The notes beneath the pieces are model-generated. The model was not told the origin of the DNA and did not search any database. It saw only the letters and a list, made by a program, of their open reading frames with translations. A program made the position numbers and the translations under genes. Shown here piece by piece: positions 4,636 to 56,500 of a stretch of 64,000 nucleotides of DNA. Within the stretch, counting starts at the first letter, position 1. Each line of letters starts with the position of its first letter. The DNA comes from Octopus vulgaris (Eukaryota): contig OX597829.1 in assembly GCA_951406725.2 (NCBI GenBank), positions 11,842,001 to 11,906,000 on the forward strand, given 5' to 3'.

Positions 4636-4678
<43 letters not shown>

Positions 4679-34061: not shown

Positions 34062-34378
34062 TGTTATTAAACTTTGTTACATTTATATATTTATTTTGCA
34101 AGATTTTTGATGTGAAATTGTGTGTTGAAACAGATATTGTTGTATTTAGGAAGGGTCATTTTGCCAGTTTAGCCAATAAAACACACGCACTATATATTTG
34201 GTCTTACTGATGAGGTCACGGGAGTGTGACGAAAGAACTCTGGCCAAAATAAGATTAAGATTAATGTAAAAAATGAATAACGCTGAAGCAAAGGAGCACC
34301 AAATATATAGTGCGTGTGTTTTATTGGCTAAACTGGCAAAATGACCCTTCCTAAATACAACAATATGTTATTAAACTT
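34062..34378 (+). mobile_element. Short PLE-type insertion: perfect 69-bp inverted repeat enclosing a hammerhead core
   Basis: Arms 34134-34202 and 34298-34366; CTGATGA-G-GTCAC(gggagt)GTGAC-GAAA-GAAC-TC at 34207-34240; 13-bp direct repeat TGTTATTAAACTT at 34062 and 34366. Confidence 0.75.
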
Positions 34379-35529
34379 GTTTTTTTTTATTACAAGTTAT
34401 TAAGAACTACTACTAAAAGTCTTTAAGTAGTATTCAACTGAAATTCCATTTTTGCTCATCTTTTTGATAAAAATTGGCACACTATAACTCACAAGGAAAT
34501 TTTAGAAAAGGGAAGTTTTGATACCTTGAGGGTACAGTGATATTTTCCGGAGAGGGAGGTACTCTTCCTAATTAAATTTTTTGATTGGGAGGGTAGTATG
34601 TCATATAAGAAATTCTTCTTCGCCATGTGGTTTGAAATGTAAAACCTTCAATGTACCCACTCCGTACAGGTATGGGAGTATTTGAAAAGACATTTTAATG
34701 GGGGCTATTGAAATTTTTTTATATTGTTGCTAACAATTAGCCTTAAAATTATTATTTGATTTTAAAATTTTATGAATATAAATATATTTTTTAATTTTAA
34801 CTATAGATGCAATCTTTTAAGTATAAATATGCTTGTCCTGTACTTGTCCAGGTTTAATAACTTAAGAATATCAACCTCCATGCACTCGCATTTTTCATTG
34901 TAATCCACTTTTTCTCCAGGCAATGGACAATTAATTAGTGACAATTCATAATTCATAATTTTACTTGATTAAAAATTTTTCATCTTATTCAATACTGTTA
35001 TAAAAATAGTTTGATGATTGAATTAAAATAAGAATAAGTATTTACTTAAATGAATTGTAAGAGCACTTTAGTTACTCTAGCTCGTGATAAAATTTAGAGA
35101 AAAAGAGAAATCTTATTATGATGCAAGGGAGGCAACTGTGTGTATTTTATATAATATAATTATATGCAACTTTACGCCCCCCTCACTTACTCATGTCTTA
35201 AGCTTTGCTTCGTAAATACAAACGATACTTAACCATCCATGATTTTAGTTTGCGTGCGAACTAGATTGCGTATACATATGTATACATGCATTTGTGTGTA
35301 TATTTTAGCTTTATATTTATACGTCTGTATATGTATGGGGTTCGCACGCATCTATTCTGTGTATGTTGATATATATGTATACTTTAATATGAATATGTAT
35401 TGCTGTGTTATATTTTTAATGCATATTTTTAATGCATTTCAATTTCCATGTATTAATTATATTTCCTTCATTAAGGTCAATATGTATTTTATTCAATGTA
35501 AGGTTTTTTTCCTCGAATTTTATAATTTT

Positions 35530-35573
<44 letters not shown>

Positions 35574-35700
35574 AGCTCATCTTTGTTTATCACTCAAAAA
35601 TTGACCGTTATTTCTAAAGGGCCAATCAAACAAGTCCATTTTTTAAAGGTGTAGCGTTTGTAATAGTCTGGATAGAATTGACATATCGGTTCCATTCTAG

Positions 35701-35750
35701 CAAAACCTGTCCGATGAACGGCAACGGGAAACTCAAAGTAACAGGTTTTG
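35701..35750 (+). ncRNA. Type-I hammerhead ribozyme (one core substitution) in a PLE 5' pLTR
   Basis: CAAAACCTGT-CCGATGA-A-cggcaacgg-GAAA-CT-CAA-AG-TA-ACAGGTTTTG; perfect 10-bp stem I; directly upstream of a Penelope ORF remnant. Confidence 0.65.
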
Positions 35751-35776
35751 TTGAATTTTCTGCTGCTTTAAATAAA

Positions 35777-35846
<70 letters not shown>

Positions 35847-35912
35847 TTTTTTAGGAAATAACAAACCTGTTCTGAGTGCCTATCGACATTTTTAGAGACA
35901 TCAATTCTATCA

Positions 35913-35958
<46 letters not shown>

Positions 35959-35959
35959 T

Positions 35960-37900
35960 AAAGGACTGGTTTTACAGACTCAGATGGAAGTTTTTTTATT
36001 TTGGCAAAAACAGGAAATACAAGACTCTGAAAATAATTCAAATAGTGAAACTCATTCAATGATATTTAAAACGAAGACAACTCCTCTACCGAATAGTTAT
36101 CTGGAAAAGTTTGAACAAGACTTGTGGAATACTATTAAAAACCTGACATTTAAAACACCCTCCTTGGAACAGTGTACATCAGTGTAAACTTAAGAGCCTA
36201 ATGATGGAAATTTTGTGCACTCAGATAAAACACAAAACACATACAACCTAAGCACTGAAACATCATAATTCACTACACAAAGATATTACAAAAAAAAATA
36301 TAAGGTTGTAAGCAAAAATACACTTAGATTAATTGATGTAGAAGCTAGGAAAATTATGTATGATTATAATATTCGCTATAAAACTTAGCCCTTTGTACCG
36401 GTTAGGCTCTGTTACTAGGAAAGTTACTATTCATCTATAAATCCCACTATATTAAACAGCGCCAGTTTATTTGCAAGGAAATATAGAAACATTACAATGA
36501 AGGAAATAAATGTAAGCACAGGTCAATTATAGAATTTGACAACTATGGGCCAGAAAGAATACCCCTGATAGTTTTGAAGTAACTATGGGGTACCCGAGCT
36601 AACAGACTTAGTGGTAATCTATCTTCTTTCCATGCTACATGATGAATTCCCTGAGATTGGGGGTGGATTATATAGAGACGATGCATCGTAAAAAACTTCT
36701 CCAATAGATGCGTGGAACTAATCAAGAAATGACTATATAAACTCTTTAAGAGATTTGGTTTTACCATCACAATTCTATAAACTTCTTAGATGCAAATGTT
36801 AATTTAGTAACAGGCATCCATGAGTCTTTTAAAAAGCCTAACTCCAATATTAAGTATATACACTCCCAAAGCAATCAGGCAACATCAATAAAAGCGCTTT
36901 AATTTTAAAATATCAGCTGTAGAATATTATACCTCACATTGAATGAGGATATAAGAGAAATGTCATAAACAAATATAAAAGTTATAAAATCAAAAATGAT
37001 ATTGGTGACAAAAATATAAAGGAAAATGTGAACAACCATAAAGTTAAATATAAAAATAAAAATAATATCAGAAACAAAAATAGATCAGATATAAACGAAC
37101 TACAATAGCCCCACTAATCTAGTATGTCTTGAATCATCTAATAACAACAGCAATAACAACAATAGCAGCAGCAGTAACAACAACAACAACAACAATAGCA
37201 GCAGCAACAACAACAACAATATTAATAATAGGAAGGAGAGGAAGGAGAAGGAATAAATAATAATATATGGTTGATACTGCCTTTGTGTTATAGATTAAGA
37301 GTAATCTAGTAAAATCTATCCTTTCAATTATTAATAAGCATTTTAACAATAAATATCATGAAATTATTAATACTAAAACTATCAAAATAGGGTATAGTTT
37401 AACACAGAATCTGGCTACTATTATCTCTGCTATAAATAATAGGAAATTGGACTTATTCAATATATATAGAAAGGATTCTAACAGGAATGTAAATATCTGT
37501 AATACTATTATAGATAACCCTAATGCAAATATAAATGCCCATAACACATTTTTACAGAGCAATACATCTACTCATGGACCATTCACCTAATATCCTTGAA
37601 GCCAATTTTATACCTAATAACTGTGATTGTAGAATTAAAAGTAACTGCTTACTTAGAAATGCATGGAAGCGTAAAAGCGTACTATATGAATGTACAGTAA
37701 CGGCACAGGGAATGAAGCATTGTTATATAGGTTCAACACAGAATAAGATTAAGAAACGTTTAACCTCTCAGAAATAGACGTAGATCTGGTTCCACTGGTC
37801 TGAGTAAATTTATTTGGGAGCTAAAAGATAAGAATATACAGTATGATTTACAATGGGAAATACTAACCTCCGCCTAAATGAAAAATTCTTTATTCTCATG
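35960..37900 (+). mobile_element. Degraded Penelope-like element (RT + GIY-YIG)
   Basis: FKTKTTP..YLEKFEQDL, SDKTQN, GGLYRDD, NFLDANVNL, KKPNSNIKYIHSQSN, CDCRIKSNCLL, VLYECTV..CYIGST, LSKFIWELKDKN. Confidence 0.8.
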
Positions 37901-38844
37901 GTGAGATACTCTTGTATTCTAAATTTTTACTGATATAATTTTAATTATTTATTTATTTTATCGGTTGCAGTTTCATCCATGTCTAACCCATTTGACTACA
38001 TATTTAACTTTTTTCCCCTTTACTACATTAATCTCCTCTTTAAAATCAACATATTTTTAACCCCGGCTTTATGTATTGATATATATTTGCCCTTACATTT
38101 ATATTCATATATATCTTGCCCTTACATTTATATTCATTATACTTATTCATCCTTTTCCCATAAACTATATTAAATTTAATCTAAATTCTATGATCACCCC
38201 AATTTTACCAGGGGTTTATGTGTGTGTGTGTGTGTGTGTGCGTGCGTGTGTGTCTATATATGTGTGTTACATGATTTTATGGTCTCCATTCTCTATTTCT
38301 TTTTAATGTTAATTAACGTAATTATTTACCTTTAATAAATTCTCAATATTATAAATTTATCAGATATATGTTCTTATTTCCACATAAACTGGTTTTAACT
38401 TGGTTTCATTCCATATTTTATTATCTCTTATCCTACTCTGTATTTATAATAATATTTTATTCCACAAAATTTCTCCTTCATATTTCCTACATTATATTAT
38501 ATTATACCTTGCATTTATGCCTGTAATGTATTAATGTATTATTAATATACCCTTTAAATAGCATATTAACTCTTTGCTAGGTTTAAAATTGATATCTGTT
38601 TTTATTTTATTGTATTGTATTATTTTATTGTATTTGGCCTTATTTGATTTAATTTACTTATACTTTGATACTTTCATACTTTATAATCTTTGTATAAATG
38701 AATGTTATGTCATTTAATATGTTATAATTATTTATGAAAATTAAAAGCTTTTGGTAAATCCCATATTACCTCCCCTTAACTGTGTAACACAGTCTTTTTT
38801 ATGACTAGAGATTACTTTTTATATACATTATATATATGTGTGTG

Positions 38845-38898
<54 letters not shown>

Positions 38899-38940
38899 CA
38901 TACATACATACGTACATACATACATACATACTTACATACT

Positions 38941-38990
<50 letters not shown>

Positions 38991-39072
38991 ATCCAAACAT
39001 GAAAACACAACAGCGCGAGGACGTGGAACAAGTATAGTGTTATTGGACGCTCAGGAAAGGAAAAAAAGGAGG

Positions 39073-39108
39073 ATTTAACATTTCGAGCAGAGCTCTTCGT
39101 CAGAAACA
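39073..39108 (-). ncRNA. Minimal hammerhead ribozyme
   Basis: RC: TGTTT-CTGACGA-A-GAGC(tct)GCTC-GAAA-TG-TT-AAAT. Confidence 0.6.
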
Positions 39109-39851
39109 TAGGAAAAGGAAAGATCCAAGAAAGGGAAGACAGAGGAAAAAAATCGCCGATACACACCCGGTTACATGAAGTATTTTATTTCCGTTGTATA
39201 ATTAAGCTTATTTCTCCATTTGTCATATTTCGTATTAATTGTACTAAAATTAGTCTTATTATTTCATATTATTTAGTACTAAAGTGTGCCAAGTTAATAG
39301 TATATTGAGATGATTCCTGATTCACTGCTTAAATACATAAATAAATCATTACTTCTGATTAGCTCTAATTTAAACAAGATATGCCCTGTTTAAATTTATT
39401 CACGCTTAGCTGCCTTTACATATATCTTTCCCTACATCCCAGCTATGTATGAAAGCATTTTACGAAATTCATTGTAATTTATTTTTTATTTTATTTCCTC
39501 TTTTATAATGTTTATTTTCTTAATATTACATTTACCCCCTATAGCATGTCATATGCTTGCTTCAGTGCATATTTACTTCCGGTTTATTTAACGGAATGCG
39601 GTATGTCAAAAATTTTTAATTTTTTTTAATTCTTACCTAATAGTTTATTATTATTGTTGTTTTTTTACCTTAAAGGCTTGAAATAAATTCTCTCAAGGGA
39701 TGAACAGATATAGTTTGTATTTTGATATTTTCTCTTTATTGCTTTGAATTTACTATTTATTCATTTATTTGATTATAAACATAAGCAATAAGTTATTATT
39801 ATTATATTTAGAAATTATCTAATCCTTTCCGATTACTTCGGTTAAGACATT

Positions 39852-40094
39852 TTGCCACAACACCAAATCGTCAGCTACAGCCATCACAAATTAGTGACCT
39901 GTACGCTCGACATAGATAGCATGTGTAGATGAGGTACCGGTTACTGGAAACTAAAAAAGTCACTATTGGGCTGTGAAGCCTACAGGAAGCGGATTAAACA
40001 ATTAGTAATGAGGGCGTTGACCGGATCCATTATCAACAACAAATGGTGGTACGCCCTGAAAAGAGCCATCAAATTTGAGTCAATTAGGTTTAGC
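39852..40094 (+). mobile_element. Tx1/L1 LINE ORF2 fragment (end of the endonuclease)
   Basis: HHKLVTC..GTGYWKL..RALTGSIINNKWWYALKRAIKFESIRFS; homologous to ~20700-20910 and ~24500-24700. Confidence 0.8.
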
Positions 40095-40528
40095 TGCCTC
40101 GACGAATATCGTCGTACCGTTTTGAAAGGAAGCGACCACCGCAGCACGACGCATAGGGCGCCGGATGAGTCTAAAAGCTGCAGCAGGCCCCTCTCGTCTG
40201 CCGACCTAGTCGCTGGCCTTCTTCTTCTTCGCCGCCTTCTTCTCCTCTTCCGCCCGGAACCGGCCCCCACTTCGAATCGACCCGCACCGGAGCCCGTCCG
40301 CAGTGGCCCCGGTGTGCGACAGTAGGATCGCAAAGCGCTTTTGCTCCGCGAACGCTTCTTCGCGTATTGACTAGTTTGTTTTCGCCTCTTCTCCCGTCGG
40401 AGGAGGAGGAGGCGCACGCGTATACGAACGGCTGCCGACTGGTCGAGCCCTACCCGCTCGCCTCTTTTCGGGCTGCCGATTCCTCTTCTTCTTCTTCCGC
40501 ACTTCGTTTTCACGTGTTGTGTTGGTGA
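40095..40528 (+). other. rDNA 5' external transcribed spacer fragment
   Basis: GC-rich sequence immediately upstream of the canonical 18S 5' end. Confidence 0.7.
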
Positions 40529-40825
40529 TACCTGGTTGATCCTACCATTAGTCATATGCTTGTCTCAAAGCTTAAGCCATGCAAGTGTAAGTTCATGCCG
40601 TAAACAAATGGTGAAACCGCGAATGGCTCAGGAACCGGACCTAATCCTCGGGACCGTATTCTTCCACCGTGAGGAGAGTGGATAACTGTGGCAATTCTAG
40701 AGCTAATACATGCAACCGAAGCCGCGATCGCAGGTCGCACCCGGGCGTCGGGCTCGAAAACGACGTTCGGCAGCCGTCGCGTCTTCGCGGCATTGCTGCC
40801 ATTCGCCGCCGGTGTCCGCTCTGAT
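40529..40825 (+). rRNA. 18S: 18S rRNA 5' fragment (orphan, pseudogenic)
   Basis: TACCTGGTTGATCCT...AGTCATATGCTTGTCTCAAAG...AAGCCATGC...GGATAACTGTGGCAATTCTAGAGCTAATACATGC; ends within V2. Confidence 0.93.
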
Positions 40826-41967
40826 TAACAAAAAATGAAGCGGAAGACGTGGTTGACCCTACAAACCACATACTCACACTGAAGACTTTGCTTTCTCCTT
40901 TTCTACATTCCCGATTAAACAGGTTCTTTCACTCGCAACATACTTGCTATATACTTCCATCTGTTACGAAACACACTTTGCGACAGGCATTTCTTCTCCA
41001 GCCTTATTTTCCGTTTCATGTGGAAAACGAAAAAGTCAATTAGCTCGAGACTGGAGATAAACATGCCTGTTGCAATTCCTTTTTCTCTCGTCTTCCATAC
41101 AACTTCTTTCGCCATATTCAGGGAGGTCGGCGGAACTATCTTAATTACAGATTCGTTCGACAGTTGTACTCTTCTCGAATGCGACAGCAGGTGTTCTACA
41201 TAAGCCCAGAATTCAGTCATCTTGGGGCATTGCACAATCGCGTGCAGGACAGTTTTACTGTCCCTCTCACATCTTGCACAAACCGGCGAAAGTGCACACC
41301 CATGTCTAAAGAGCTTATCTCGAACCGGTAAAGCTCTTCTGTAACACTGCCAGGCCAGCTCTTCTGTAACACTGCCAGGTAAATCCAGAGGTGCCTAAAC
41401 CTGAGTGCATGTCTGCGCATTTTTAGCCACGGCATCCCTAATCCACCCTTCAGCGGCTTTTGGCAGCAAATTGAGCGCCTTACAAGAGGTCTGCTCCCCC
41501 TCCACAAAAAGCGAAAGAGCATGCGTTCCAGTTTGTTCAGCCACGAATCGGGGCAAGGCACGACGGTCAGGCGGTAAGTGATTACAGAGGCGATAAACAC
41601 CTCTGCAACCTCCTCCCTCCCTTTCAAGGACAGCTTCCGCTCAGACCAGGTCTGAGTTAGGAGAGCCACCTTTTTCGCCACCTCGCTCCAGTTCTCTATC
41701 TGGAGATCTGGACCTAACCAGATTCCAAGCATTTTCACCGGTCCTTCCGTCCAACGTCCTACGACGTTGTCGGAAGACATCGACTTGCCCCTCCAGGTGC
41801 CGAGTTGCAAGCCAACAGATTTATCCCGGTTGACTTTCGCTCCTGCCACCGCTTCGTAGTCCCTTAAGGCCTCACTCACCCACTGTAGGTGCTCGACTCG
41901 GGATACGATGACGGTGATGTCATCCGCATACGCCGAAGCTGACTTTCCGCACCCTAGATCTTGCGGA
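40822..41967 (-). mobile_element. 5'-truncated Tx1/L1 LINE (YADD to 3' UTR); 3' end displaced to 46271-46390
   Basis: ORFs 41217-42062 (SAYADD...KGGLGMP) and 40915-41235; 3' UTR cut at 40822. Confidence 0.88.
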
Positions 41968-42540
41968 GGAGAGAAGGAGGGGGTGAGAGTGAGAGAGAGG
42001 GTGAGATAGAGAGTGAGAGAAGGAGAGGGTGAGAGAGAGAGTGAGAGAGATAGATGCCCCATTTTGTGCTTGTTTACATTCTGTGTAAGACAGTGAGAGA
42101 GAGAGAGAGTGACGGAGATAGAGTGAGAGAGAGAGGGAGAGAATGAGAGAGAGTGAGAGAGATAGATAGATCCCGCAGTTTGTGTTTGTTTACATTCTGC
42201 GTAAGACAGTGAGAGAGAGAGAGATAGTGAGAGAGAGAGGGAGGGAGAGGGAGAGAATTAGAGTGAGAGAGATAGATCCCCCATTTCGTGTTTGTTTACA
42301 TTCTGCGAAAGACAGTGGGAGAGAGAGAGTAAGATGGAGAGAGAGAGAGTGAGAGAGTGAAAGAGTGAGAGTGATAGTGTGAGAGGGAGGGAGAGAGTGA
42401 GAAAGAGTGAGAGTGAGAGAGATAGATCCCCCATTTTGTGTTTGTCTATATTCTGCGTTAGACAGTGAGATAGATAGATAGATAAAGAGAGTGGGAGAGA
42501 GAGAGTAAGACAATGAGAAAGAGAGAGGAGGCAAGATATA
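41968..42540. repeat. (GA)-rich microsatellite containing four copies of a ~45-bp unit
   Basis: GATAGATCCCCCATTTTGTGTTTGTTTACATTCTGCGTAAGACAGTG at ~42049, ~42165, ~42271, ~42421. Confidence 0.85.
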
Positions 42541-42559
42541 GCGAGTGAAAGAAATTGAT

Positions 42560-42945
42560 AGACGTGGGAGGGGCTGTGTGATAAGTAATTTGCTTACGAA
42601 CCGCAGAGTTCTGGTTCTAGTCCCACTGCGTGGAAGATTGGGCAAGTGTCTTCTACTATAGCCTGGCGCCGACCAAAGCCTTGTGAGTGGATTTGGTAGA
42701 CGGACACTGAAAGAAGCCCGTCGTATATATGTATGTATATATGTATATATATGTGTGTGTGTGTATATGTTTGTATATCTGTGTTTTTCCCCTAAACATC
42801 GCTTGATAACTGTCTAGCGGTGCGGCGAAAGAGACCGATAGGCCTACAAAGAATAAGTCCTGTGGGGGGGGGGGTCGATTTGCTCGAATAAAGGCACTGC
42901 TGCAGCATGGCCGCAGTCAAATAACTGAAGAAAGTAAAAGAGATT
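42560..42945 (+). mobile_element. OR-type octopus tRNA/CORE-like SINE
   Basis: tRNA-like head, TTGGGCAAGTGTCTTCTACTATAGCC, internal (TA)/(TG) tract, tail GCATGGCCGCAGTCAAATAACTGAA..AAGTAAAAGAG. Confidence 0.75.
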
Positions 42946-43217
42946 AAACGTTTAAATCGCGCCAGATTTGTATATTCTCTTAACTTCATAATCAAGGAGA
43001 GAACTGAAACATAACAGAGTTAGTTCCCTTTACTATTCAGGATTAGGGGTGGGGGTGGGAGAAAGGTGTTTCTGTTATCTTCAGAAATGTAAACAAATCC
43101 ACGTGTGTACTTATACCGAAAGATCGCCCTATAACCATTACTTAATAAATAAATCTTTAATAATATTAACAATACTCATAATAATAATACTGAGCTTGTT
43201 TGTTCCTTGTCAAGCCA

Positions 43218-43558
43218 TGAGAGAGAGGGAGATAGAGAGAGTGAGAGAGAGAAAGAGAGAGAAAGAGAGAGAGTGAGTGAGAGAGAGAGTAAGAGAGATA
43301 GAGAGAGAATGAGATAGATAGAGAGTGAGTGAGAGAGAGTGAGAGAGAGAGTGAGAGAGAGAGGGAGCGAGAGAGGGAGCGAGAGAGAGAGTGAGGGTGA
43401 GAGAGAGTGAGGGAGAGAGGGAGCGAGAGAGAGAGTGAGGGTGAGAGAGAGTGAGGGAGAGTGAGTGAGATAGAGAGAGACAGAGAATAGGTGAGAGAGA
43501 GAGTGAGAGAGAGTGAGAGAAAGTGAGAGAATGAGAGAGAGGGAAAGCGAGTGAGAGA
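43218..43558. repeat. (GA)-rich microsatellite
   Basis: Seen directly; abuts the LINE 3' end. Confidence 0.95.
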
Positions 43559-44892
43559 GTATTTCTTTATTCACCATAAGGTTGAGAAAAAGGGGACAAT
43601 ACGGGGACAGACAAAACAAACGTTGAGGTCAGGGCATCGAATGAGACGAAACGTATGAATAAACAATTAAAATATATACAATTAAATGAGGATGAGTGAT
43701 TAACAAAAAAATGAAGCGGAGGACGCGGTCGACCCCACAAACCACATACTCACACTGAAGACTTTGCTTTCTCCTTTTCTACATTCCCGATTAAACAGGT
43801 TCTTTCACTCGCAACATATTTCCTATAGACTTCCATCTTTTACGAAACACACTTTGCGACAGGCATTTCTTCTCCAGCCTTATTTTCCGTTTCATGTGGA
43901 AAACGAAAAGGTCGATTAGCTCGATTGCCTGTTGCAATTCCTTTCACTCTCGTCTTCCATACTATTTGTTTCGCCACAGCAACTACCGAAAGAAAACAGG
44001 CTCGCTCCTCCTTATTCAGGGAGGTCGCTGGAACTATCTTAATTACAGATTCGCTCGACAGTTGTACTCTTCTCGAATACGACAGCAGGTGTTCGACATA
44101 AGCCCAGAGTTCAGTCGCCTTGGGGCATTGCACAATCGCGTGCAGGACAGTTTCACTGTCCCTCTCACATCTCGCACAAAGCGGCGAAGGTGCACACCCA
44201 TGTCTAAAGAGCTTAACTCGAACCGGTAAAGCTCCTCTGTAACACTGCCAGGCCAGGGACTTTTGGTAATTATCCATAGGCCCCGGACAGAACGTTCTTT
44301 GGAACTGGCTGGCCCGTTGATCTTCGTCGAAGCCTAGGGTTTCTCCCAGGACATCGTCACACTTAAACTCTACTAACCCTCTATAGAAGAACGAGGTAGT
44401 ACCCCCGCCACCGGCGTTGCCCGCACTCTACATGCCACACGCCCAACCTCGATCTACACTTGATCCATGTGTTCAGTTTGGTAAACGTAGTGAACTGTGG
44501 AAATAACAGCTTGAAGAACGGAGACCATACCTGCTCACCGTCCAGGTAAAACCAGAGGTGGCTATGTCTGAGCGCATGTCTGCGCATTTTTAGCCACGAC
44601 ATCCCTAACCCACTCTTCAGTGGCTTTTGGCAGCAAATAGAGCGCCTTACAAGAGGTCTGCTGCCCCGCCACAAAAATCGAAAGAGCATGCGTTCTAGCT
44701 TGTTCACCCACGAATCGGGGCAAGGCATTACAGAGGCGATAAACACCTCTGCAACCTCCGCCCTCCCTTTCAAGGACAGCTTCCGCTCAGACCAGGTCTG
44801 AGTTAGGAAAGCCACCTTTCTCGCCACCTCGCTCCAATTCTTCTCTATCTGGAGATCTGGACCTAACCAGATTCCTAGCATTTTCACCGTCC
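43559..44892 (-). mobile_element. Tx1/L1 LINE 3' part (post-RT ORF2 plus complete 3' UTR) fused to 18S sequence
   Basis: ORFs 44381-45094 (VKMLGIWLGPD...) and 43840-44277 (DNYQKSLAWQCYRGALP..CARC..ETVLH..QC); ends AATAAAGAAATA then (TC)n. Confidence 0.9.
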
Positions 44893-46270
44893 CTCTAAGA
44901 AGCGCTGCGTTCGCCAACCGACTGGCCCGGACGTGATGGCGTGCCGCCGCCGGGCTCGCGCGGGCCGAGCCGACCGGGTCACCGCCGCCGCTCCGCAACC
45001 GACGCCGCAACCACGCCGCGACCGCCCCGCGAGGGGGACGGCAGCCGGACGCGGCCGCAGCGCCAGACGCGAAGGAGAGTGGCGGCAACGGCAAGCCCGG
45101 GTCGCGCGCGGAGCTACCGACGACGGCTTCGGCGTCACCGCGCTACCGGAAAAGCACTAATCGACGCGCTAGTTAGCAGGCCGGAGTCTCGTTCGTTATC
45201 GGAATCAACCAGACGGATCGCTCCACCAACTAAGAACGGCCATGCACCACCACCCACCGAATCGAGAAAGAACTATCCATCTGTCAATCCTACCGGTGTC
45301 CGGACCGGGTGAGTTTTCCCGTGTTGAGTCAAATTTCTGTTTTGCAACGATACTCCCCTCGGAACCAACTATGGTTTCCCGCGCAGGCTCCCCGCCGGGT
45401 CATCGAAGCGAACGCCGGCGGAGCGCCAGTCGGTATCTGATCGTCTTCGAACCTCGTGGCTCCCGTGCGCGCAGCACCGACCCGCGCGACGACGAGGCCG
45501 CGCAGGCGTGAAACCGGACGACACATGCGGGCGAAGACAGGCGCAGGGCGGCGGCCGACGCGGCGGCGACGCGAGCATAGCTCCGCGGCCCGACCGCGCA
45601 CGCACCGGCGAATAGGGTCGGGAGTGCGAACGGACGACCGAAGCGGACGCGCCAGAAGCACGCCTACGACGGCGCAGTCGCCCCGAACGTGCTGGGGCAC
45701 GTTTTCGATACCCGAATTCCGACTACGAGCTTTTCAAACGCAACAATTTTAATATACGCTACCGGAGCTGGCACCACGGCTGATGGCACCTGACTTGCCC
45801 TCCAGTCGATCCTCGTTAACGGATTTGAAGTGTACTCATTCTGATCGCGGGGCCTCGACAGAGTCCCGCTTCGTTATTTTTCGTCACTACCTCCCCGTGC
45901 CGGGAGTGAGTAATTTGCGCGCCTGCTGCCTTCCTTGGATGAGGTAGCCGTTTCGCATGCTCCCTCTCCGGAATCGAACCCTGATTCCCCGTTACCCGTT
46001 GCTACCACGGTCAGCACTGACCGGGCCGTCGACAGTTGATAGGGCGGACTCGCGGGGGACCCGTCGCGCGAAGGCTAGTGCGATACTAGCCCGTGCGATC
46101 GTACTGACAGTTATCCAGAGTCACCAAAATCGAAGGGCGTGAAGCCGCCGCACGCCTAGGATCCGCGCGCTGAAGGCGCGGCAGCTGCGTCGGTCTCAGT
46201 CTAATATTTGCGCCGCGCTCCAATGCGGAAGGCCGACCGTATCGTCGCGACCGGAAGGTTCGAGCGTATC
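44889..46270 (-). rRNA. 18S: 18S rRNA internal fragment (V2 to V7) with internal deletions, pseudogenic
   Basis: RC contains TTGGTGACTCTGGATAAC, GGGTTCGATTCCGGAGAGGGAGC, TCCAAGGAAGGCAGCAGGCGCGCAAATTAC, GGAGGGCAAGTC, AATTTGACTCAACACGGGAAA, GGTGGTGCATGGCCGTTCTTAGTTGGTGGAGCG, CTTCTTAGAGGGAC. Confidence 0.95.
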
Positions 46271-46390
46271 GTAATTGTATATATTTTAATTGTTTGTTTA
46301 TTCATATGTTTCGTCTCATTCGATACCCTGACCCCAACGTTTGTTTTGTCCCCTCTTTTTCTCAACCTTATGGTGAATAAAGAAATACTC
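46271..46390 (+). mobile_element. Terminal 3' UTR of Tx1/L1 LINE
   Basis: Matches RC of 43560-43685: taattgtatatattttaattg...ctcaaccttatggtgaataaagaaatac. Confidence 0.85.
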
Positions 46391-46786
46391 TATCTCACCC
46401 TCTCTCTCACTCTCTTTCTCTCACACTCGCTCACTATCTCTCACTTTCTCTCTCTATCACTCTCTCTCTCTCTGATTCTCTGTCTCACTCTATCTCACTC
46501 TCTCGCTCTCACTCTCTCTCACTCACTCTCTCTCTCTCTCAATTTCTAACTCACACTCTCTCTCCTAACTCTCTCTCTCTCTCACTCTCTCTCTCCTCAC
46601 TCTCTCTCTCCTCACTCTCTCTCTCTCACTCTTTCTCATTCATTCTCGCTATCACTCTTTCTCATTCATTCTCGCTATCACTCACTCTCTCTCTCTCTCT
46701 CTCCTCACTCTCTCTCTCCTCACACTCTCTCTCACTCTTTCTCATTCATTCTCGCTATCACTCACTCTCTCTCTCTCTCTCTCTCA

Positions 46787-46876
<90 letters not shown>
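46388..46876. repeat. (TC)-rich microsatellite ending in pure (TC)n
   Basis: Seen directly. Confidence 0.95.
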
Positions 46877-46880
<4 letters not shown>

Positions 46881-47870
46881 CGGACTCTTATCTGTTATTC
46901 TTTGCTCCGCAGTGAAAGATTGTTTTTGTGCTGAAAATTGTGAAAATTTGCTGTTTTGGTCGGCGAGACCACTTCTCTTCTGCTGTTGAAACAGAGTATT
47001 GCCGTTGTTTCCCCCTTGCTTCAAGGGGGAAGCGGCGAAAGACATGAATTTGTCACCAATTTCTTCCGAGTCCAAGGAAATCTTTGAAAATTTGTTTGAA
47101 GGCATAAAGGCGAATATGTGGGAGGAGGGCGGTAAAGATATAGAGGCGAATATGTGGGAGGAGGAAGGTAAAGGCATAGAGGCGAATATGAGGAGGAGAA
47201 AGGTAAAGGTATAGAGGCGTCGCACGCGCTCGTTACAAAGGCAGACAACAAAATGTCTAGCGAGGAAAAGTCAAAAATTAATTTTGCGAGTGCAGCAACT
47301 CGCCCCTGTGAAAATATAGTCATAAACAAAGAAGATTTAAATAAATTCCAAGGACTACTAAAAAAAGAAGGTGATAATGTGAAGTTACTCCCTCCCAGTG
47401 AATTAATTTACGCGACGGAGAAAAACTGATATATAAAACATATGTAAAAACTAAAAAAAATTGATTTCGTACCGAGGAAAGCGATAGAAAAATGATTGAG
47501 GCCGATATGGCAACAAACAAGCTATATAACGAGGGGTAGTCGCTTCGGCACTGTAGAGGTGCGTTTCCCTAGCGAAGAAAAAGCTAGGGAAAATTCAACA
47601 ATGACATTGAAGTCGGAAGAAGTAGTTCTCCTGCCGACTTACATAGGAAAGAGAACTTCAAAAATCACGGTCACTGATATACCACCCGAAATAGATGTGG
47701 CCTGGGTGATAGCCGCTATTCTCATAGGCAAAGAAGAAGAAATTTCAATTCTTCAATCTAAGAGATACCACCACATGAACTGGGTTGGACAAGATTTAGA
47801 GCTTGTCATCCAAGCAAACCCCTCAGACTTAGAAAAAATGCCCAGTTCCCTTACAATTGGGAAATAGTTC
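46877..47870 (+). mobile_element. Tx1/L1-related 5' UTR + ORF1 fragment
   Basis: ORF 47496-47867 (ITRGSRFGTVEVRFP..LLPTYIGKR..IPPEIDVAW) homologous to the other ORF1s; 3x33-bp repeat at ~47100-47220. Confidence 0.7.
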
Positions 47871-48084
47871 GAAATGGTATAAAATTCGACATTTTCAAGA
47901 ATAATACTATTTACATCTGTTGCGATATATTTTTTCGCCGATTTCATTAAAACAATTTGGTCTCTTAATAGTTTTTTATTTATTTATTATTTTTATTTTT
48001 ATGTACTAGTGAATGTCTAATACATAAAAATAAAAATAATAAATAAATAAATTTAAAAAAAAAATAATAAAAAAAAAAATAAAC

Positions 48085-48332
48085 AAAAAAGTTTGTTTTA
48101 AACCTTGGGATTACATAGAGAGTATTTTGCGTAGGATATGAGCAGTTCCCATGAGCACTATCTTTTTGGGGTTTCCTGGAATCTGAGTTAGGTAGCAGGC
48201 ACAGAACTTCCAACCTGTTGTCTCTTTATCAGACATGATGGGTATATTGGGATTCGTATATTTTACCCCAGTGTCACTTTGATGGCATGAGCTGCTCTCT
48301 CACTCAATAATAATAATAATAATAATAATAAA
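48085..48332. mobile_element. Non-LTR (R4/Dong-like) C-terminal fragment on minus plus an (AAT)n-tailed 3' end on plus
   Basis: RC translates QKIVLMGTAHILRKIL; ...ctctctcactc(AAT)n at ~48295-48332; clade call is from memory. Confidence 0.5.
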
Positions 48333-48915
48333 TTCTTGTTTTATTGGCCACATGAAAGGACAAACAGAGAACGATAAAAACAAATGGTTTTGCAAAAAGA
48401 AAAGTCCGTGTAAACATATGGTAACAAGAAAAATTTAACAGGTAAAAAGAACTCCCAATAGGGGGGGGGCACTTTGAAAGTTATTCACCCACCTTTTAAT
48501 AAATTTGCTACAAGATTACACTTCCCTCTCTTCTCTCATCTTCCTTTTCAAGTGGAACTTGAAAAAGTTAACGAGGCCTTGGCCAAAGAGGGAAGTGTCT
48601 GACTTTGGCCCTTTCAAACGGGGCCACCATACCACCTCTTTCGCCACAGCCACTAGACAAATGAAAATTTTCCTTCCCCTCCCAGTTAGAGGAGGTCGGC
48701 GGGGCAAGCTTCACTATGGATTCAGCTGATAGCCGGATCTGTCCTACACGCGACAGCAGCTGTTCGACATAAACCCTCAGGTCAGCAATGCTCGGGCACT
48801 GGACTAGTGTGTGCAGAATGATTACGTAGTTCTGAGCGCACCTCGGGCGGGCCCAGCTGGAAGCAATCCATGGGCCCCGGCCTGAAAGTTCTCCCAAACA
48901 GACTGCTTAGCTTTA
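48333..48915 (-). mobile_element. Tx1/L1 LINE 3' end fragment
   Basis: ORFs 48568-48897 (LHTLVQCP..ESIVK) and 48516-48707 (VAVAKEVVW..FKFHLKRKMR); tail ...tttgtcctttcatgtgggccaataaaac. Confidence 0.75.
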
Positions 48916-48921
48916 ACAGTT

Positions 48922-49240
48922 TTAACTGTGCAATTTATGCGCTTCTAAAATTGTGGCAGTGTCCTCTATGTCTAAGAGGACAGCTACCACTAGCCAGCAT
49001 ATACTGAGTTCAGGTGGCACTTGCTCTATTTTTATTTTTGTAACGCGCCGACCAAGGTATGTCGGCATGAGCAGCAAATCCTCAGTTTTTAAGGGTACTG
49101 TGGAATACTGCTTTGCGTTCTTTTCAGTTGGGAAGCGAACTTCTACAGTTCCAAATCGTTTCCTCGCTTCCCCTTGGTTACATATTGATTTCTTTGCCCG
49201 TATCGGCTTTAGCACTATCTAAAACTTCTGTGGCACTTTA
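48922..49240 (-). mobile_element. Tx1/L1-related ORF1 fragment
   Basis: RKRFGTVEVRFP..LMPTYLGRRVTKIKIEQVPP..WLVVAV. Confidence 0.7.
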
Positions 49241-50514
49241 GTGATCTTTTTGATAATTGTAATCTTACCAATCAGTAAACTTATATACATCCAAGAGTTA
49301 ACTCAATTTAACAAAAGGTTTCAAATAAAAAATTTGTCAGTATACTGCAAAAAAGCATAACAATGTGAACAAAATGTGTTAAGGAATATTGGAAATAATT
49401 CCAGAAATGCAACAAAATTACTATTTCATCGATTTCCTCCGAGCAGTGGCAGATGCCAAAACAAACAAACAACATTTAAAGCTTCAGATAAATTATAATT
49501 ACCAAAGAGATTACTCAAGTGACGACATACAAATTTGTTGTTTTCAGGATACAAAATGCGTCAAAATATTGCAAATAAACATGAAAAAGTAAAATTGCTA
49601 ATTCAAATTTATTTATCTTCAAACATTTTGTAGATGATTTGAATTACCAAAGAGATTACCCAAGTGACAAAAGTTTTCCAAAAAATTATCTAAAAAGCTT
49701 TAAGTAAAATTGCAAATACAAATTTAATTTCGTGTCATTGAAAACGTCTGTCACTTAATTACTTTGATAAATGTAATCTTATCAAATGATAAAAAATATT
49801 GCTAATTGCAAAAAAATAACAATGTGTTGTCAAAATAATTCCTAGAAATGCAACAAATTAAAATTTGGCAATTTCTTTTACTTTTAAATGGTTATTTGCC
49901 CGAGGGATAACTAAAGTCACAGTAGATTTATGGATAGGGCATAAACATATGCCCTATCAATAAATCTACTTTACATGAGTTATAAATTGCATATAAAATC
50001 CAAGATTCTCAAAAGTTTTCATGATACAACTGTGTCAAAATATTGAACGTGAATAGCTTCAAATTTGAGTTACGTGATCTGTTAAATATAAATTTACAGA
50101 TTGATGATAAGGATATATTTATCAAAGACATCACAAAAATGTCAAAAGTTCCCAAGATACCTAATGTGTTAAAATATTGCAAATTTGTACTAATAAACAA
50201 TAAATTGGAATTTGCAATCTTGTTCACATTGTTAGACATTTCTTCGGTAACTATAAGTTTAGTGATTCATAATAATCTATATTTATTTAAGTAATCAGAA
50301 AAATATATATTTTGACATTTATAATTTATGAGGTTTTCAGGTAAAAAATTTTGACAAAATATTGCAAATAAGCATAAAAATGTGAACATGAACAAAATCA
50401 GGTAACTATTATTTACCTAAGAAATTTCTTATTTCACAAAAGATTTCAGAAAACAAAATATGTTTAAATATTGGAAATAAACATGAAAAAGTAAAATTGC
50501 TAATTCAAATTTTG
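49240..50514. repeat. Degenerate, deleted edge units of the 1.3-kb satellite
   Basis: Shuffled partial copies of unit segments, including the 50-bp hairpin at ~49921-49970. Confidence 0.8.
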
Positions 50515-53500
50515 TAGGACTCATTTGCAATATCTTCAAACATTTTGTAGCATAAATTACCAAAGAGATTACCCAAGTGACAAAAGTTTTCCAAAAAATT
50601 TCTGAAAAGCATAAAAAAGTAAAAAATACAAATTTTAATTTTAGTACTCATGTGGAAAAAGTTTTCACTATACAAATAAAAGTAATAAAGTGATATTGCT
50701 GATTTAAATTTGTTATTAAATTTATCACAAAACATTTTAACACATTTTTTATCCTGAAGATGACTGACAAATATATTGATGACAAAAGATTGCAAAATAT
50801 TGTACATAAACATAGAAAAGTGAAGAAAATTGCAAATTACAATCTTTTTTTTTTAGTACTTATTTGCAATATATTGACATATTTCGTATCATGAAAACGT
50901 CTGTCACTTGAGTGATCTCTTTGATAAATGTAATCTTATCAATCAGTAAACTTACATTCATCCAAGAGTTTACTCAATTCACAAAAGTTTCAGATAAAGA
51001 ATTTGTCAATATACTGCAAAAAAGCATAACAATGTGAAGAAAATGTGTCAAAATAATTCCTGAAATGCAACAAATTAAAATTTGCAATTTTTTTAAACTT
51101 TTTAATGGTTATTTGTCTAAGGGATAACTAAAGTCACAGTAGATTTATGGATAGGGCATAAATATAAGCCCTATCAATAAATCTACTTTACATGAGTTAT
51201 AAATTAACTCATATATATATCCAAGATTCTCAAAAGTTTTCATGATACAACTGTGTCAAAATATTGCACGTGAATACTAAAAAGCTTCAAATTTGAGTTA
51301 GCAATTTTGTTCACATTCTTATGCTTATTTGCAATATTTTGACACCGTTTTCATCTGAAAATTTTTGTGACGTGTGATCTGTTAAATATAAATTTACTGA
51401 TTGATGATAAGGATATATTTAAAATGTCAAAAGTTTTCAAGATACCTAATGTATCTTGCAAAAAAGTACTAATAAAACAATAAATTGGAATTTGCAATCT
51501 TGTTCACATTGTTAGACATTTTTTATCTGAAAACTTTTGTGACGAGTAATTTCTTCGGTAACTATAAGTTTAGTGGTTCATAATAATCTATATTTATTAA
51601 AGTCATCAGAAAAATATCAATACTTTGTCACATTCTGTTTACTGAAATATTTTGACATTTTTGTGATGTCTTATAATTTATGAGGTTTTCAGGTAAAAAA
51701 TTTTGACAAAATATTGCAAATAAGCATAAAAATGTGAACATGAACAAAATCAGGTAACTATTATTTACCTAAGAAATTTCTTATTTCACAAAAGATTTCA
51801 GAAAACAAAATATGTTTAAATATTGGAAATAAACATGAAAAAGTAAAATTTAGGACTCATTTGCAATATCTTCAAACATTTTGTAGCATGAAATTACCAA
51901 AGAGATTACCCAAGTGACAAAAGTTTTCCAAAAAATTTTTGAAAAGCATAAAAAAGTAAACAAAATACAAATTTTAATTTTAGTACTCATGTGGAAAAAG
52001 TTTTCACTATACAAATAAAAGTAATAAAGTGATATTGCTGATTTAAATTTGTTAATAAATTTATCACAAAACATTTTAACATTTTTTCTCCTGAAGATGA
52101 CTGACAACTATATTGATGACAAAAGATTGCAAAATATTGTACATAAACATAGAAAAGTGAAGAAAATTGCAAATTACAATCTTTTTTTTTAGTACTTATT
52201 TGCAATATATTGACATATTTCGTATCATGAAAACGTCTGTCACTTGAGTGATCTCTTTGATAAATGTAATCTTATCAATCAGTAAACTTATATTCATCCA
52301 AGAGTTAACTCAATTCACAAAAGTTTCAGATAAAGAATTTGTCAATATACTGCAAAAAAGCATAACAATGTGAAGAAAATGTGTCAAAATAATTCCTGAA
52401 ATGCAACAAATTAAAATTTGCAATTTTTTAAACTTTTTAATGGTTATTTGTCTAAGGGATAACTAAAGTCACAGTAGATTTATGGATAGGGCATAAATAT
52501 AAGCCCTATCAATAAATCTACTTTACATGAGTTATAAATTAACTCATATATATATCCAAGATTCTCAAAAGTTTTCATGATACAACTGTGTCAAAATATT
52601 GCACGTGAATACTAAAAAGCTTCAAATTTGAGTTAGCAATTTTGTTCACATTCTTATGCTTATTTGCAATATTTTGACACCGTTTTCATCTGAAAATTTT
52701 TGTGACGTGTGATCTGTTAAATATAAATTTACTGATTGATGATAAGGATATATTTAAAATGTCAAAAGTTTTCAAGATACCTAATGTATCTTGCAAAAAG
52801 TACTAATAAAACAAAAATTGGAATTTGCAATCTTGTTCACATTGTTAGACATTTTTTATCTGAAAACTTTTGTGACGAGTAATTTCTTCGGTAACTATAA
52901 GTTTAGTGGTTCATAATAATCTATATTTATTAAAGTCATCAGAAAAATATCAATACTTTGTCACATTCTGTTTACTGAAATATTTTGACATTTTTGTGAT
53001 GTCTTATAATTTATGAGGTTTTCAGGTAAAAAATTTTGACAAAATATTGCAAATAAGCATAAAAATGTGAACATGAACAAAATCAGGTAACTATTATTTA
53101 CCTAAGAAATTTCTTATTTCACAAAAGATTTCAGAAAACAAAATATGTTTAAATATTGGAAATAAACATGAAAAAGTAAAATTTAGGACTCATTTGCAAT
53201 ATCTTCAAACATTTTGTAGCATGAAATTACCAAAGAGATTACCCAAGTGACAAAAGTTTTCCAAAAATTTTTGAAAAGCATAAAAAAGTAAACAAAATAC
53301 AAATTTTAATTTTAGTACTCATGTGGAAAAAGTTTTAAAGTGATATTGCTGATTTAAATTTGTTAATAAATTTATCACAAAACATTTTAACATTTTTTTC
53401 TCCTGAAGATGACTGACAACTATATTGATGACAAAAGATTGCAAAATATTGTACATAAACATAGAAAAGTGAAGAAAATTGCAAATTACAATCTTTTTTT

Positions 53501-56500
53501 TTTAGTACTTATTTGCAATATATTGACATATTTCGTATCATGAAAACGTCTGTCACTTGAGTGATCTCTTTGATAAATGTAATCTTATCAATCAGTAAAC
53601 TTATATTCATCCAAGAGTTTACTCAATTCACAAAAGTTTCAGATAAAGAATTTGTCAATATACTGCAAAAAAGCATAACAATGTGAAGAAAATGTGTCAA
53701 AATAATTCCTGAAATGCAACAAATTAAAATTTGCAATTTTTTTAACTTTTTAATGGTTATTTGTCTAAGGGATAACTAAAGTCACAGTAGATTTATGGAT
53801 AGGGCATAAATATAAGCCCTATCAATAAATCTACTTTACATGAGTTATAAATTAACTCATATATATATCCAAGATTCTCAAAAGTTTTCATGATACAACT
53901 GTGTCAAAATATTGCACGTGAATACTAAAAAGCTTCAAATTTGAGTTAGCAATTTTGTTCACATTCTTATGCTTATTTGCAATATTTTGACACCGTTTTC
54001 ATCTGAAAATTTTTGTGACGTGTGATCTGTTAAATATAAATTTACTGATTGATGATAAGGATATATTTAAAATGTCAAAAGTTTTCAAGATACCTAATGT
54101 ATCTTGCAAAAAAGTACTAATAAAACAATAAATTGGAATTTGCAATCTTGTTCACATTGTTAGACATTTTTTATCTGAAAACTTTTGTGACGAGTAATTT
54201 CTTCGGTAACTATAAGTTTAGTGGTTCATAATAATCTATATTTATTAAAGTCATCAGAAAAATATCAATACTTTGTCACATTCTGTTTACTGAAATATTT
54301 TGACATTTTTGTGATGTCTTATAATTTATGAGGTTTTCAGGTAAAAAATTTTGACAAAATATTGCAAATAAGCATAAAAATGTGAACATGAACAAAATCA
54401 GGTAACTATTATTTACCTAAGAAATTTCTTATTTCACAAAAGATTTCAGAAAACAAAATATGTTTAAATATTGGAAATAAACATGAAAAAGTAAAATTTA
54501 GGACTCATTTGCAATATCTTCAAACATTTTGTAGCATGAAATTACCAAAGAGATTACCCAAGTGACAAAAGTTTTCCAAAAAATTTTTGAAAAGCATAAA
54601 AAAGTAAACAAAATACAAATTTTAATTTTAGTACTCATGTGGAAAAAGTTTTCACTATACAAATAAAAGTAATAAAGTGATATTGCTGATTTAAATTTGT
54701 TAATAAATTTATCACAAAACATTTTAACATTTTTTCTCCTGAAGATGACTGACAACTATATTGATGACAAAAGATTGCAAAATATTGTACATAAACATAG
54801 AAAAGTGAAGAAAATTGCAAATTACAATCTTTTTTTTTTAGTACTTATTTGCAATATATTGACATATTTCGTATCATGAAAACGTCTGTCACTTGAGTGA
54901 TCTCTTTGATAAATGTAATCTTATCAATCAGTAAACTTATATTCATCCAAGAGTTAACTCAATTCACAAAAGTTTCAGATAAAGAATTTGTCAATATACT
55001 GCAAAAAAGCATAACAATGTGAAGAAAATGTGTCAAAATAATTCCTGAAATGCAACAAATTAAAATTTGCAATTTTTTTAACTTTTTAATGGTTATTTGT
55101 CTAAGGGATAACTAAAGTCACAGTAGATTTATGGATAGGGCATAAATATAAGCCCTATCAATAAATCTACTTTACATGAGTTATAAATTAACTCATATAT
55201 ATATCCAAGATTCTCAAAAGTTTTCATGATACAACTGTGTCAAAATATTGCACGTGAATACTAAAAAGCTTCAAATTTGAGTTAGCAATTTTGTTCACAT
55301 TCTTATGCTTATTTGCAATATTTTGACACCGTTTTCATCTGAAAATTTTTGTGACGTGTGATCTGTTAAATATAAATTTACTGATTGATGATAAGGATAT
55401 ATTTAAAATGTCAAAAGTTTTCAAGATACCTAATGTATCTTGCAAAAAAGTACTAATAAAACAATAAATTGGAATTTGCAATCTTGTTCACATTGTTAGA
55501 CATTTTTTATCTGAAAACTTTTGTGACGAGTAATTTCTTCGGTAACTATAAGTTTAGTGGTTCATAATAATCTATATTTATTAAAGTCATCAGAAAAATA
55601 TCAATACTTTGTCACATTCTGTTTACTGAAATATTTTGACATTTTTGTGATGTCTTATAATTTATGAGGTTTTCAGGTAAAAAATTTTGACAAAATATTG
55701 CAAATAAGCATAAAAATGTGAACATGAACAAAATCAGGTAACTATTATTTACCTAAGAAATTTCTTATTTCACAAAAGATTTCAGAAAACAAAATATGTT
55801 TAAATATTGGAAATAAACATGAAAAAGTAAAATTTAGGACTCATTTGCAATATCTTCAAACATTTTGTAGCATGAAATTACCAAAGAGATTACCCAAGTG
55901 ACAAAAGTTTTCCAAAAAATTTTTGAAAAGCATAAAAAAGTAAACAAAATACAAATTTTAATTTTAGTACTCATGTGGAAAAAGTTTTCACTATACAAAT
56001 AAAAGTAATAAAGTGATATTGCTGATTTAAATTTGTTAATAAATTTATCACAAAACATTTTAACATTTTTTCTCCTGAAGATGACTGACAACTATATTGA
56101 TGACAAAAGATTGCAAAATATTGTACATAAACATAGAAAAGTGAAGAAAATTGCAAATTACAATCTTTTTTTTTTAGTACTTATTTGCAATATATTGACA
56201 TATTTCGTATCATGAAAACGTCTGTCACTTGAGTGATCTCTTTGATAAATGTAATCTTATCAATCAGTAAACTTATATTCATCCAAGAGTTTAACTCAAT
56301 TCACAAAAGTTTCAGATAAAGAATTTGTCAATATACTGCAAAAAAGCATAACAATGTGAAGAAAATGTGTCAAAATAATTCCTGAAATGCAACAAATTAA
56401 AATTTGCAATTTTTTTAACTTTTTAATGGTTATTTGTCTAAGGGATAACTAAAGTCACAGTAGATTTATGGATAGGGCATAAATATAAGCCCTATCAATA

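What the first reader, a model, noticed from the sequence alone, without database searches (positions are those of the whole stretch)
39852..46270. LINE-pre-rRNA-LINE chimera: a Tx1 LINE whose RT core is replaced by 5'ETS+18S
Seen: LINE endonuclease end (39852-40094, +) runs straight into ETS+18S 5' end (40095-40825, +). The remaining 18S (46270->44889, -) runs straight into post-RT LINE ORF2 and an intact 3' UTR (44892->43559, -). The second junction has GGAC microhomology (18S CTTAGAGGGAC / LINE GGAAGGACCGGTGAAAATG). After undoing the inversion below, the order is LINE-EN | ETS-18S (~2.1 kb) | LINE C-terminus-3'UTR, all sense. The rRNA substitutes for ~1.35 kb of ORF2, judged against the LINE copy at ~24700-26045. 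Known: L1 RT makes template-switch chimeras (e.g. U6-L1). Inference: RT switched from LINE RNA to unprocessed pre-rRNA (ETS retained, implying nucleolar access) and back. If multi-copy, this would be an rRNA-bearing non-autonomous retroelement family.
Basis: partly seen in the sequence, partly recalled or inferred. Interest (0 to 1): 0.8.

Follow-up and report, generated by a model that had tools for sequence, protein, structure and literature searches.

The report
Ribosomal DNA trapped inside a LINE
A single, decaying piece of ribosomal DNA sits where the reverse-transcriptase core of a LINE retrotransposon used to be; it was likely patched in by DNA break repair rather than copied from RNA, and it is an ordinary kind of genomic debris, not a spreading new element.

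Summary
The architecture is real. LINE ORF2 (aa 221-300) joins ETS+18S, and 18S joins LINE ORF2 (aa 753 onward) and its 3' end; 1354 nt of LINE, including the RT core, are missing. A tandem duplicate 32 kb away keeps the un-inverted order and confirms the inversion. Both junctions occur once in the 2.8-Gb assembly, so there is no amplifying family. The rDNA piece and the LINE pieces are equally old (about 3.5% private changes) and co-oriented, which keeps double template switching alive. But dispersed rDNA fragments are common in this genome, many carry intergenic spacer, and 2 of 87 examined form the same LINE|rDNA|LINE sandwich in ways RNA template switching cannot give: one antisense 18S-ITS1 piece with the same 7/8-nt microhomology, one antisense spacer piece. 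None of the 87 was a simple rRNA-LINE 3' chimera. There is no target-site duplication, and the locus has since undergone an inversion, a duplication and large deletions. Best reading: end-joining capture of an rDNA fragment in a Tx1-like LINE plus deletion (0.62); double RT switch onto pre-rRNA 0.27.

The parts
39175..39854 (+). Older AT-rich dispersed repeat forming the 5' flank; not the (CT)n target typical of this LINE; joined to A through CCAC microhomology
   Evidence: 70-77% matches to many loci; junction read
39855..40094 (+). A: LINE ORF2 aa 221-300 (end of endonuclease plus linker)
   Evidence: about 96% to L063-L073; tblastn
40095..40528 (+). B1: 5' ETS remnant (434 nt left of about 690), several internal deletions; junction 1 at 40094/40095
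   Evidence: junction 15-mer matches one ETS site at 14/15
40529..40821 (+). B2: 18S rRNA nt 1-295, cut by the inversion
   Evidence: 94% blastn to the array unit; 10/272 private changes
40822..46271 (.). Inversion that arose after the tandem duplication
   Evidence: breakpoints split both the 18S and LINE C/H; the duplicate is un-inverted
40822..41968 (-). C: separate 5'-truncated copy of the same LINE family, (CT)n-flanked, with an internal deletion of about 300 nt
   Evidence: 28/1101 private changes
43217..43558 (-). (CT)n-rich tail/target of F
   Evidence: sequence; same tail in L063-L073
43559..44889 (-). F: LINE ORF2 aa 753-1138 plus 3' UTR; junction 2 at 44887-44889 (CGG)
   Evidence: 43/1168 private changes
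44887..46266 (-). G: 18S rRNA nt 321-2200 with 4 deletions of 10 nt or more (17, 11, about 430, 51 nt)
   Evidence: Rfam SSU hits; 44/1276 private changes
46272..46390 (+). H: 3' end of LINE C, left outside the inversion
   Evidence: continues C after a 12-nt loss
46881..47860 (+). I: 5' UTR and ORF1 start of a further copy of the family, inserted in the (CT)n tail
34161..49234 (+). Block duplicated about 32 kb downstream (L132, L149, L151); the duplicate is un-inverted and has lost the rDNA

Best explanation
This is a single, dead rDNA fragment lodged in a Tx1-like LINE copy, likely captured by microhomology-guided DNA break repair, with 1354 nt of the LINE lost then or by a later deletion. 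Shown: the junctions, single copy, equal age of the pieces, the later duplication, inversion and deletions, and the control sandwiches. Inferred: (1) the LINE inserted into a (CT)n repeat; (2) soon after, a break in it was joined to a loose ETS-18S fragment (DNA, or possibly a free cDNA) through short imperfect homology; (3) deletions removed the RT core, the LINE's original 5' part and about 27% of the rDNA piece; (4) the block was duplicated, one copy was inverted at 40822-46271, and the other lost the rDNA. It has no ORF and no predicted function.
For: Dispersed rDNA is common: 185, 124 and 240 first-look candidates for ETS/18S, 18S 3' end and 28S queries; a spacer query 0.9-1.5 kb past the 28S end matches about 29 loci outside the array. 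Two control sandwiches among 87 dispersed loci examined: L178/L228, an antisense 18S-ITS1 piece inside the RT domain of a related LINE, about 55 nt lost, left junction TCGGTAGT vs TCGGTGGT = 7/8 as at junction 1; and L203, a 263-nt spacer piece, antisense, between LINE EN aa 214 and aa 225. 0 of 87 were joined in sense to the 3' part of this LINE family. Deletions in 43 LINE copies have 2-5 nt microhomology in 31 of 40 cases, against about 16% expected. Large later losses happen here: the duplicate jumps from LINE 3919 to 5694 although it split off recently (31 shared, 4+5 unique private alleles), and contigs under two other organism labels carry a further 76-78-nt deletion in the ETS piece. 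No target-site duplication; A's 5' flank is not (CT)n, and the old repeat there does not resume after F.
Against: rDNA and LINE are co-oriented. The piece holds only transcribed-region sequence (assuming 690 nt upstream of 18S is ETS; the transcription start was not mapped). Ages are indistinguishable (G 44/1276 vs F 43/1168, Fisher p=0.83), which one event explains most simply. The 1354-nt loss is far larger than in the two controls (about 55 and about 30 nt). Junction 1's 7/8 match exceeds all 40 LINE deletion junctions (maximum 6/8). RNA-derived rDNA copies probably also exist here: 4 of the 20 fragments begin within 7 nt of the mature 18S 5' end, and L083/L084 runs from ETS to about 200 nt past the 28S with no spacer.
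Confidence: 0.62

Rival explanations
1. One retrotransposition event with two template switches: RT started on the LINE 3' end, switched at CGG to an ETS-bearing pre-rRNA at 18S nt 2200, copied 2.9 kb, and switched back to LINE RNA 1354 nt upstream at GGTTT(A/C)GC. Later deletions erased the 5' end and any target-site duplication.
For: Same orientation; equal age of A, B, G and F; microhomology at both joints, with P about 0.0014 for 7/8 at random breakpoints; a large LINE gap is natural for a return jump; tripartite chimeras are described (PMC2104539, parts 1-2 of 5 read: 1 of 33 chimeras, with a 14-bp TSD) and internal switching into U5 is described (PMC4476161, passages).
Against: 0 of 87 dispersed rDNA loci were the single-switch product that should outnumber double switches; no TSD; the rRNA part is neither full length nor ends at a mature rRNA end; the antisense control has the same 7/8 junction; microhomology is general for DNA deletions here.
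Confidence: 0.27
2. A and F come from two different copies of the family that once flanked or surrounded a longer dispersed rDNA unit; deletions brought them together and the collinearity is coincidental.
For: The family piles up head-to-tail in its own (CT)n tails at this locus (F, C/H, I); A's 5' flank is non-canonical; long dispersed rDNA units exist; F carries older-subfamily alleles, while A has no diagnostic site to test.
Against: A and F have the same age within error (7/240 vs 43/1168, p=0.70), and 17 loci appear in both top-40 lists; it needs more events.
Confidence: 0.08
3. An amplifying rRNA-bearing non-autonomous element family, or else a misassembly.
For: None for a family. For misassembly: junction 2 was not checked against reads, and the contig over junction 1 has only 12 nt on the LINE side.
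Against: Each junction occurs once. The copy-specific ETS-18S deletions occur in contigs under two other organism labels, and the flank-A joint is bridged. The duplicate independently shows A and F as neighbours. The piece carries 3.5% private changes and has no closer donor than the array.
Confidence: 0.03

Closest known systems
Dispersed rDNA pseudogenes, as in the human genome (PMC5381670, passages read)
   Same: Degraded rDNA pieces far from the arrays; spacer-containing copies in the same genome point to a DNA-level route.
   Different: This piece sits inside a LINE copy and replaces its RT core; it holds ETS+18S only.
Tripartite chimeric retrogenes, WEIRD-MgSINE-MGL (PMC2104539, parts 1-2 of 5 read)
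   Same: Three co-oriented, directly fused segments ending in a LINE 3' part.
   Different: No flanking direct repeats; the 5' part is the same LINE, not a full-length cellular RNA; no background of bipartite chimeras was found (31 of 33 in the fungus, 0 of 87 here).
U6/L1 and U5/L1 template-switch chimeras (PMC4476161, passages read)
   Same: Cellular RNA sequence joined in sense to a 5'-truncated LINE; the U5 cases are internal switches.
   Different: The partner is 2.9 kb of pre-rRNA sequence, LINE resumes upstream, and there is no TSD.
Kibi-type Tx1 LINEs that target (TC)n (PMC4494074, passages read)
   Same: APE endonuclease + RT + zinc finger ORF2, CCHC ORF1, (CT)n at the 5' and 3' ends of most copies.
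   Different: Clade placement was not tested on a tree; no reference Tx1 sequences were on hand.
Templated insertions at double-strand breaks by microhomology-mediated end joining (own knowledge; PMC11724301 seen as search listing only)
   Same: Short, imperfect junction homology, loss of target sequence, either orientation, patchwork inserts (L108).
   Different: The 1354-nt loss is large for one event and probably includes a later deletion.

Membership tests
LINE template-switch chimera (criteria of PMC2104539) | Parts directly joined in the same transcriptional orientation | tested here: met
   pre-inversion order shown by the duplicate
LINE template-switch chimera (criteria of PMC2104539) | 3' part is a 5'-truncated LINE with its tail | tested here: met
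   F runs to the 3' end and (CT)n tail
LINE template-switch chimera (criteria of PMC2104539) | Cellular RNA part is full length | tested here: not met
   begins inside the ETS and stops at 18S nt 2200 of 2643
LINE template-switch chimera (criteria of PMC2104539) | Whole insert flanked by a target-site duplication | tested here: not met
   5' flank is an old AT-rich repeat, 3' end is (CT)n; a later deletion could have removed a TSD
LINE template-switch chimera (criteria of PMC2104539) | All parts are of one age | tested here: met
   7/240, 10/272, 44/1276, 43/1168 private changes; p=0.70-0.83
Non-autonomous retroelement family (SINE-like) | Several genomic copies share the junctions | tested here: not met
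   1 match each at up to 2 mismatches in 2.8 Gb
Dispersed rDNA pseudogene | rDNA-derived, outside the array, decayed by substitutions and deletions | tested here: met
   on C16, array on C20; 3.5% private changes and about 27% deleted
Dispersed rDNA pseudogene | DNA-level origin shown by untranscribed spacer in the piece itself | tested here: inconclusive
   no spacer in this piece; spacer in about 29 other loci and in control L203
Tx1 clade of L1-like LINEs | APE endonuclease + RT ORF2, closer to L1 than to R2 | tested here: met
   Pfam Exo_endo_phos, RVT_1, zf-RVT; ORF1 zf-CCHC; L1 ORF2p E=2.6e-70 vs R2 5e-22
Tx1 clade of L1-like LINEs | Target preference ((TC)n for Kibi-like families) | tested here: met
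   (CT)n directly 5' of most full-length and truncated copies inspected; exceptions include A, L121, L124
Tx1 clade of L1-like LINEs | RT phylogeny groups with Tx1/Kibi | not tested
   no reference Tx1 sequences were fetched

The most novel reading that the evidence does not exclude
A Tx1-like LINE reverse transcriptase jumped from its own RNA into the middle of an unprocessed, ETS-bearing pre-rRNA, copied 2.9 kb, and jumped back onto LINE RNA. This would be a fossil of a double template switch with a nucleolar precursor, in an invertebrate. Literature searches listed no LINE-pre-rRNA-LINE case; the library lacks most subscription journals.
Probability: 0.27. Interest if true: 0.5.

Novelty: new member of a known kind. 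Interest (0 to 1): 0.22.

Why it matters
As best read, it matters little: it is one of many rDNA fragments scattered through a repeat-rich genome, and a good worked example that a co-oriented, microhomology-joined LINE|RNA-gene|LINE sandwich is not by itself evidence of template switching. If the double-switch reading were proven, it would show that Tx1-like RNPs reach nucleolar pre-rRNA and can leave and rejoin their own template over kilobases, but as a single dead copy.

Tried and rejected
Amplifying family: rejected. Copying from an older dispersed rDNA copy: no closer donor than the array, and none of G's four deletions was seen at the same ends in the 9 other dispersed 18S copies aligned. 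Same-subfamily test for A and F: inconclusive, as 16 sites separate the subfamilies in the F region and none in the A region. Microhomology as a mark of template switching: not discriminating. Deletions in G as RT skips: unnecessary, since spacer-bearing copies L085 and L090 have as many and deletions differ between organisms. The duplicate as an 'empty' allele: rejected, as its deletion spans both junctions and it is much younger than the rDNA piece. Two adjacency flags (L208, L259) were dropped: they match a short high-copy repeat in the flank of L188, with no ORF2 match. L115 (75 nt from a distant RT fragment, same strand, begins in spacer repeats) and L229 (340 nt from a LINE) are near but not joined. 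For several long dispersed units one end lay beyond the stretch fetched, and only the 40 best candidates are scored per search, so 87 loci is a sample biased to long, young pieces. Runs with small word shares (X11-X21, X23, X24) were not used. The raw-read run X22 gave 5 reads, none at a junction. Earlier scan findings: none for this genome. The mir-1277 hit is a microsatellite, below the gathering score.
Full report
Setting. The window is G000:C16:11842001-11906000 in a 2.8-Gb assembly of 227 contigs. The rDNA array lies on C20, with units of about 18.3 kb and a 2643-nt 18S. Genome size and the expanded GC-rich 18S suggest an octopus-like animal; this is an inference and was not tested.

Observation. 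Against an array unit and 11 LINE copies, the region resolves into A (39855-40094, +, LINE L064 3845-4084), B (40095-40821, +, ETS and 18S nt 1-295), C (40822-41968, -, a second LINE copy), F (44889->43559, -, LINE 5439 to the tail), G (46266->44887, -, 18S nt 321-2200) and H (46272-, +, the 3' end of C). The LINE gap is 1354 nt, ORF2 aa 301-751, containing YADD. The family encodes Exo_endo_phos, RVT_1 and zf-RVT in ORF2 and zf-CCHC in ORF1, is closest to L1 ORF2p among solved structures, and has (CT)n at the 5' end of most copies, like Kibi-type Tx1 elements (PMC4494074, passages). Junction 1 has GC perfect and 7/8 imperfect homology; junction 2 has CGG, not GGAC.

Is it real? A block of about 15 kb (34161-49234) is duplicated 32 kb downstream at roughly 98-99.7% identity. 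F and F' share 31 private alleles, with 4 and 5 unique. The duplicate jumps from LINE 3919 to 5694 and holds no rDNA; since the rDNA piece carries 3.5% private changes, it predates the duplication and the duplicate lost it. In public contigs, a run labelled organism B bridges the flank-A joint (138 nt), holds a 297-nt piece with this copy's own ETS deletions, and has a 93-nt contig over junction 1 with only 12 nt on the LINE side, below the tool's 31-nt criterion. A run labelled organism C holds the same ETS copy. Both have a further 76-78-nt deletion. Junction 2 was not checked against reads.

Copy number. Each junction pattern has 1 match at up to 2 mismatches, and 401-nt junction queries give full-length matches only to the window (40 best of 1575 and 1495 candidates scored). 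There is no family.

Age. Private changes: A 7/240, F 43/1168, G 44/1276, 18S part of B 10/272, C 28/1101. G vs F p=0.83, A vs F p=0.70. Equal age and equal orientation are what a double template switch needs. Each is worth about a factor of two against later insertion (my estimate).

Background, the deciding evidence. Dispersed rDNA is plentiful, and a presumed untranscribed spacer query hits about 29 loci outside the array; spacer-bearing copies argue for a DNA route (PMC5381670, passages). I examined 87 dispersed loci (11, 20, 12, 44 new). None is joined in sense to the 3' part of this LINE. Two sit inside LINE coding sequence with LINE continuing on both sides. L178/L228 is a 1.5-kb 18S-ITS1 piece, antisense, in the RT domain of a related family, with about 55 nt lost and a 7/8 junction match. 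L203 is a 263-nt spacer piece, antisense, between EN aa 214 and 225; its downstream LINE match is weak, E=0.001. Neither can come from switching onto rRNA. If orientation is random, a sense sandwich is expected at a similar rate. In the fungal precedent bipartite chimeras outnumber tripartite ones 32 to 1 and carry TSDs (PMC2104539); here there is no bipartite background and no TSD. A's 5' end abuts an old repeat through CCAC, not (CT)n, and that repeat does not resume after F, so the 5' end was trimmed. Microhomology does not discriminate: 31 of 40 deletions in 43 LINE copies have 2-5 nt. Large losses are frequent: 2 of those 40 exceed 300 nt, further gaps of 325-3524 nt appear, and the duplicate lost at least 1.7 kb recently.

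Against my reading. The 1354-nt loss is much larger than in the controls. Junction 1's 7/8 exceeds every LINE deletion junction. RNA-derived copies probably exist too: 4 of 20 fragments start within 7 nt of the mature 18S 5' end, and L083/L084 spans ETS to just past 28S without spacer and without an evident TSD. The sample of 87 is biased to long, young fragments. Weighing these informally gives 0.62 for capture plus deletion, 0.27 for double switching, 0.08 for two LINE copies joined by deletions, and 0.03 for family or artefact.

Novelty. Searches listed no LINE-pre-rRNA-LINE chimera. A review of rDNA-transposon associations (PMC10946416, passages) and an octopus repeat annotation (PMC13282606, term search) showed none in the passages returned; supplements were not read. 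The locus itself appears unreported, but it is most likely a new member of a known kind: a dispersed rDNA pseudogene.

Noticed in passing
L078, L082, L084, L087, L088, L090, L091, L199, L226 (dispersed) vs L230-L235, L237 (C20 array): The R2 target site in 28S is intact in 6 of 7 array units but interrupted in 9 of 9 dispersed copies in which the upstream motif was found. Inserts include about 4.6-4.7-kb elements with RVT_1 and zf-C2H2 ORFs and a 1.75-kb element without a long ORF. Either R2 insertions persist in copies outside array turnover, or R2 cutting helps disperse rDNA units.
   Followed up: partly
L084:3928-5680; also L087, L195, L199, L206, L250: A recurrent 1.75-kb insert at the canonical R2 site whose 3' end resembles the upstream target sequence; a likely non-autonomous R2 derivative.
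   Followed up: partly
L083:4672 to L084:7388: Dispersed rDNA copy running from 1.44 kb upstream of 18S to about 200 nt past the 28S end, without spacer; a possible whole pre-rRNA retrocopy, no TSD seen.
   Followed up: partly
L108:4323-5717: Patchwork of five rDNA pieces (18S, ITS1, 28S) in both orientations, flanked by a 9-nt direct repeat.
   Followed up: partly
L098, L099, L100, L101: Short 18S 5' fragments that start within 7 nt of the mature 5' end, suggesting RNA-derived tailless copies.
   Followed up: no
L089:4560-5111: 18S fragment duplicated as a fold-back palindrome that extends into its flanks.
   Followed up: no
window 50061-64000, continuing to L132:4976: Tandem array with a unit of about 1336 nt at 97-98% identity, lying between the two copies of the duplicated block.
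   Followed up: no
window 20694-23379 and 24107-26410: Two older Tx1-like LINE copies, 67-69% identical to the family studied here.
   Followed up: no
window 2795-3520 (+): 241-aa frame resembling a mariner transposase catalytic region (resemblance from recall).
   Followed up: no
L196, L205, L206: Spacer-derived pieces lie next to a short stretch matching the 28S around the R2 site, suggesting that older rDNA spacers carried a copy of that region.
   Followed up: no
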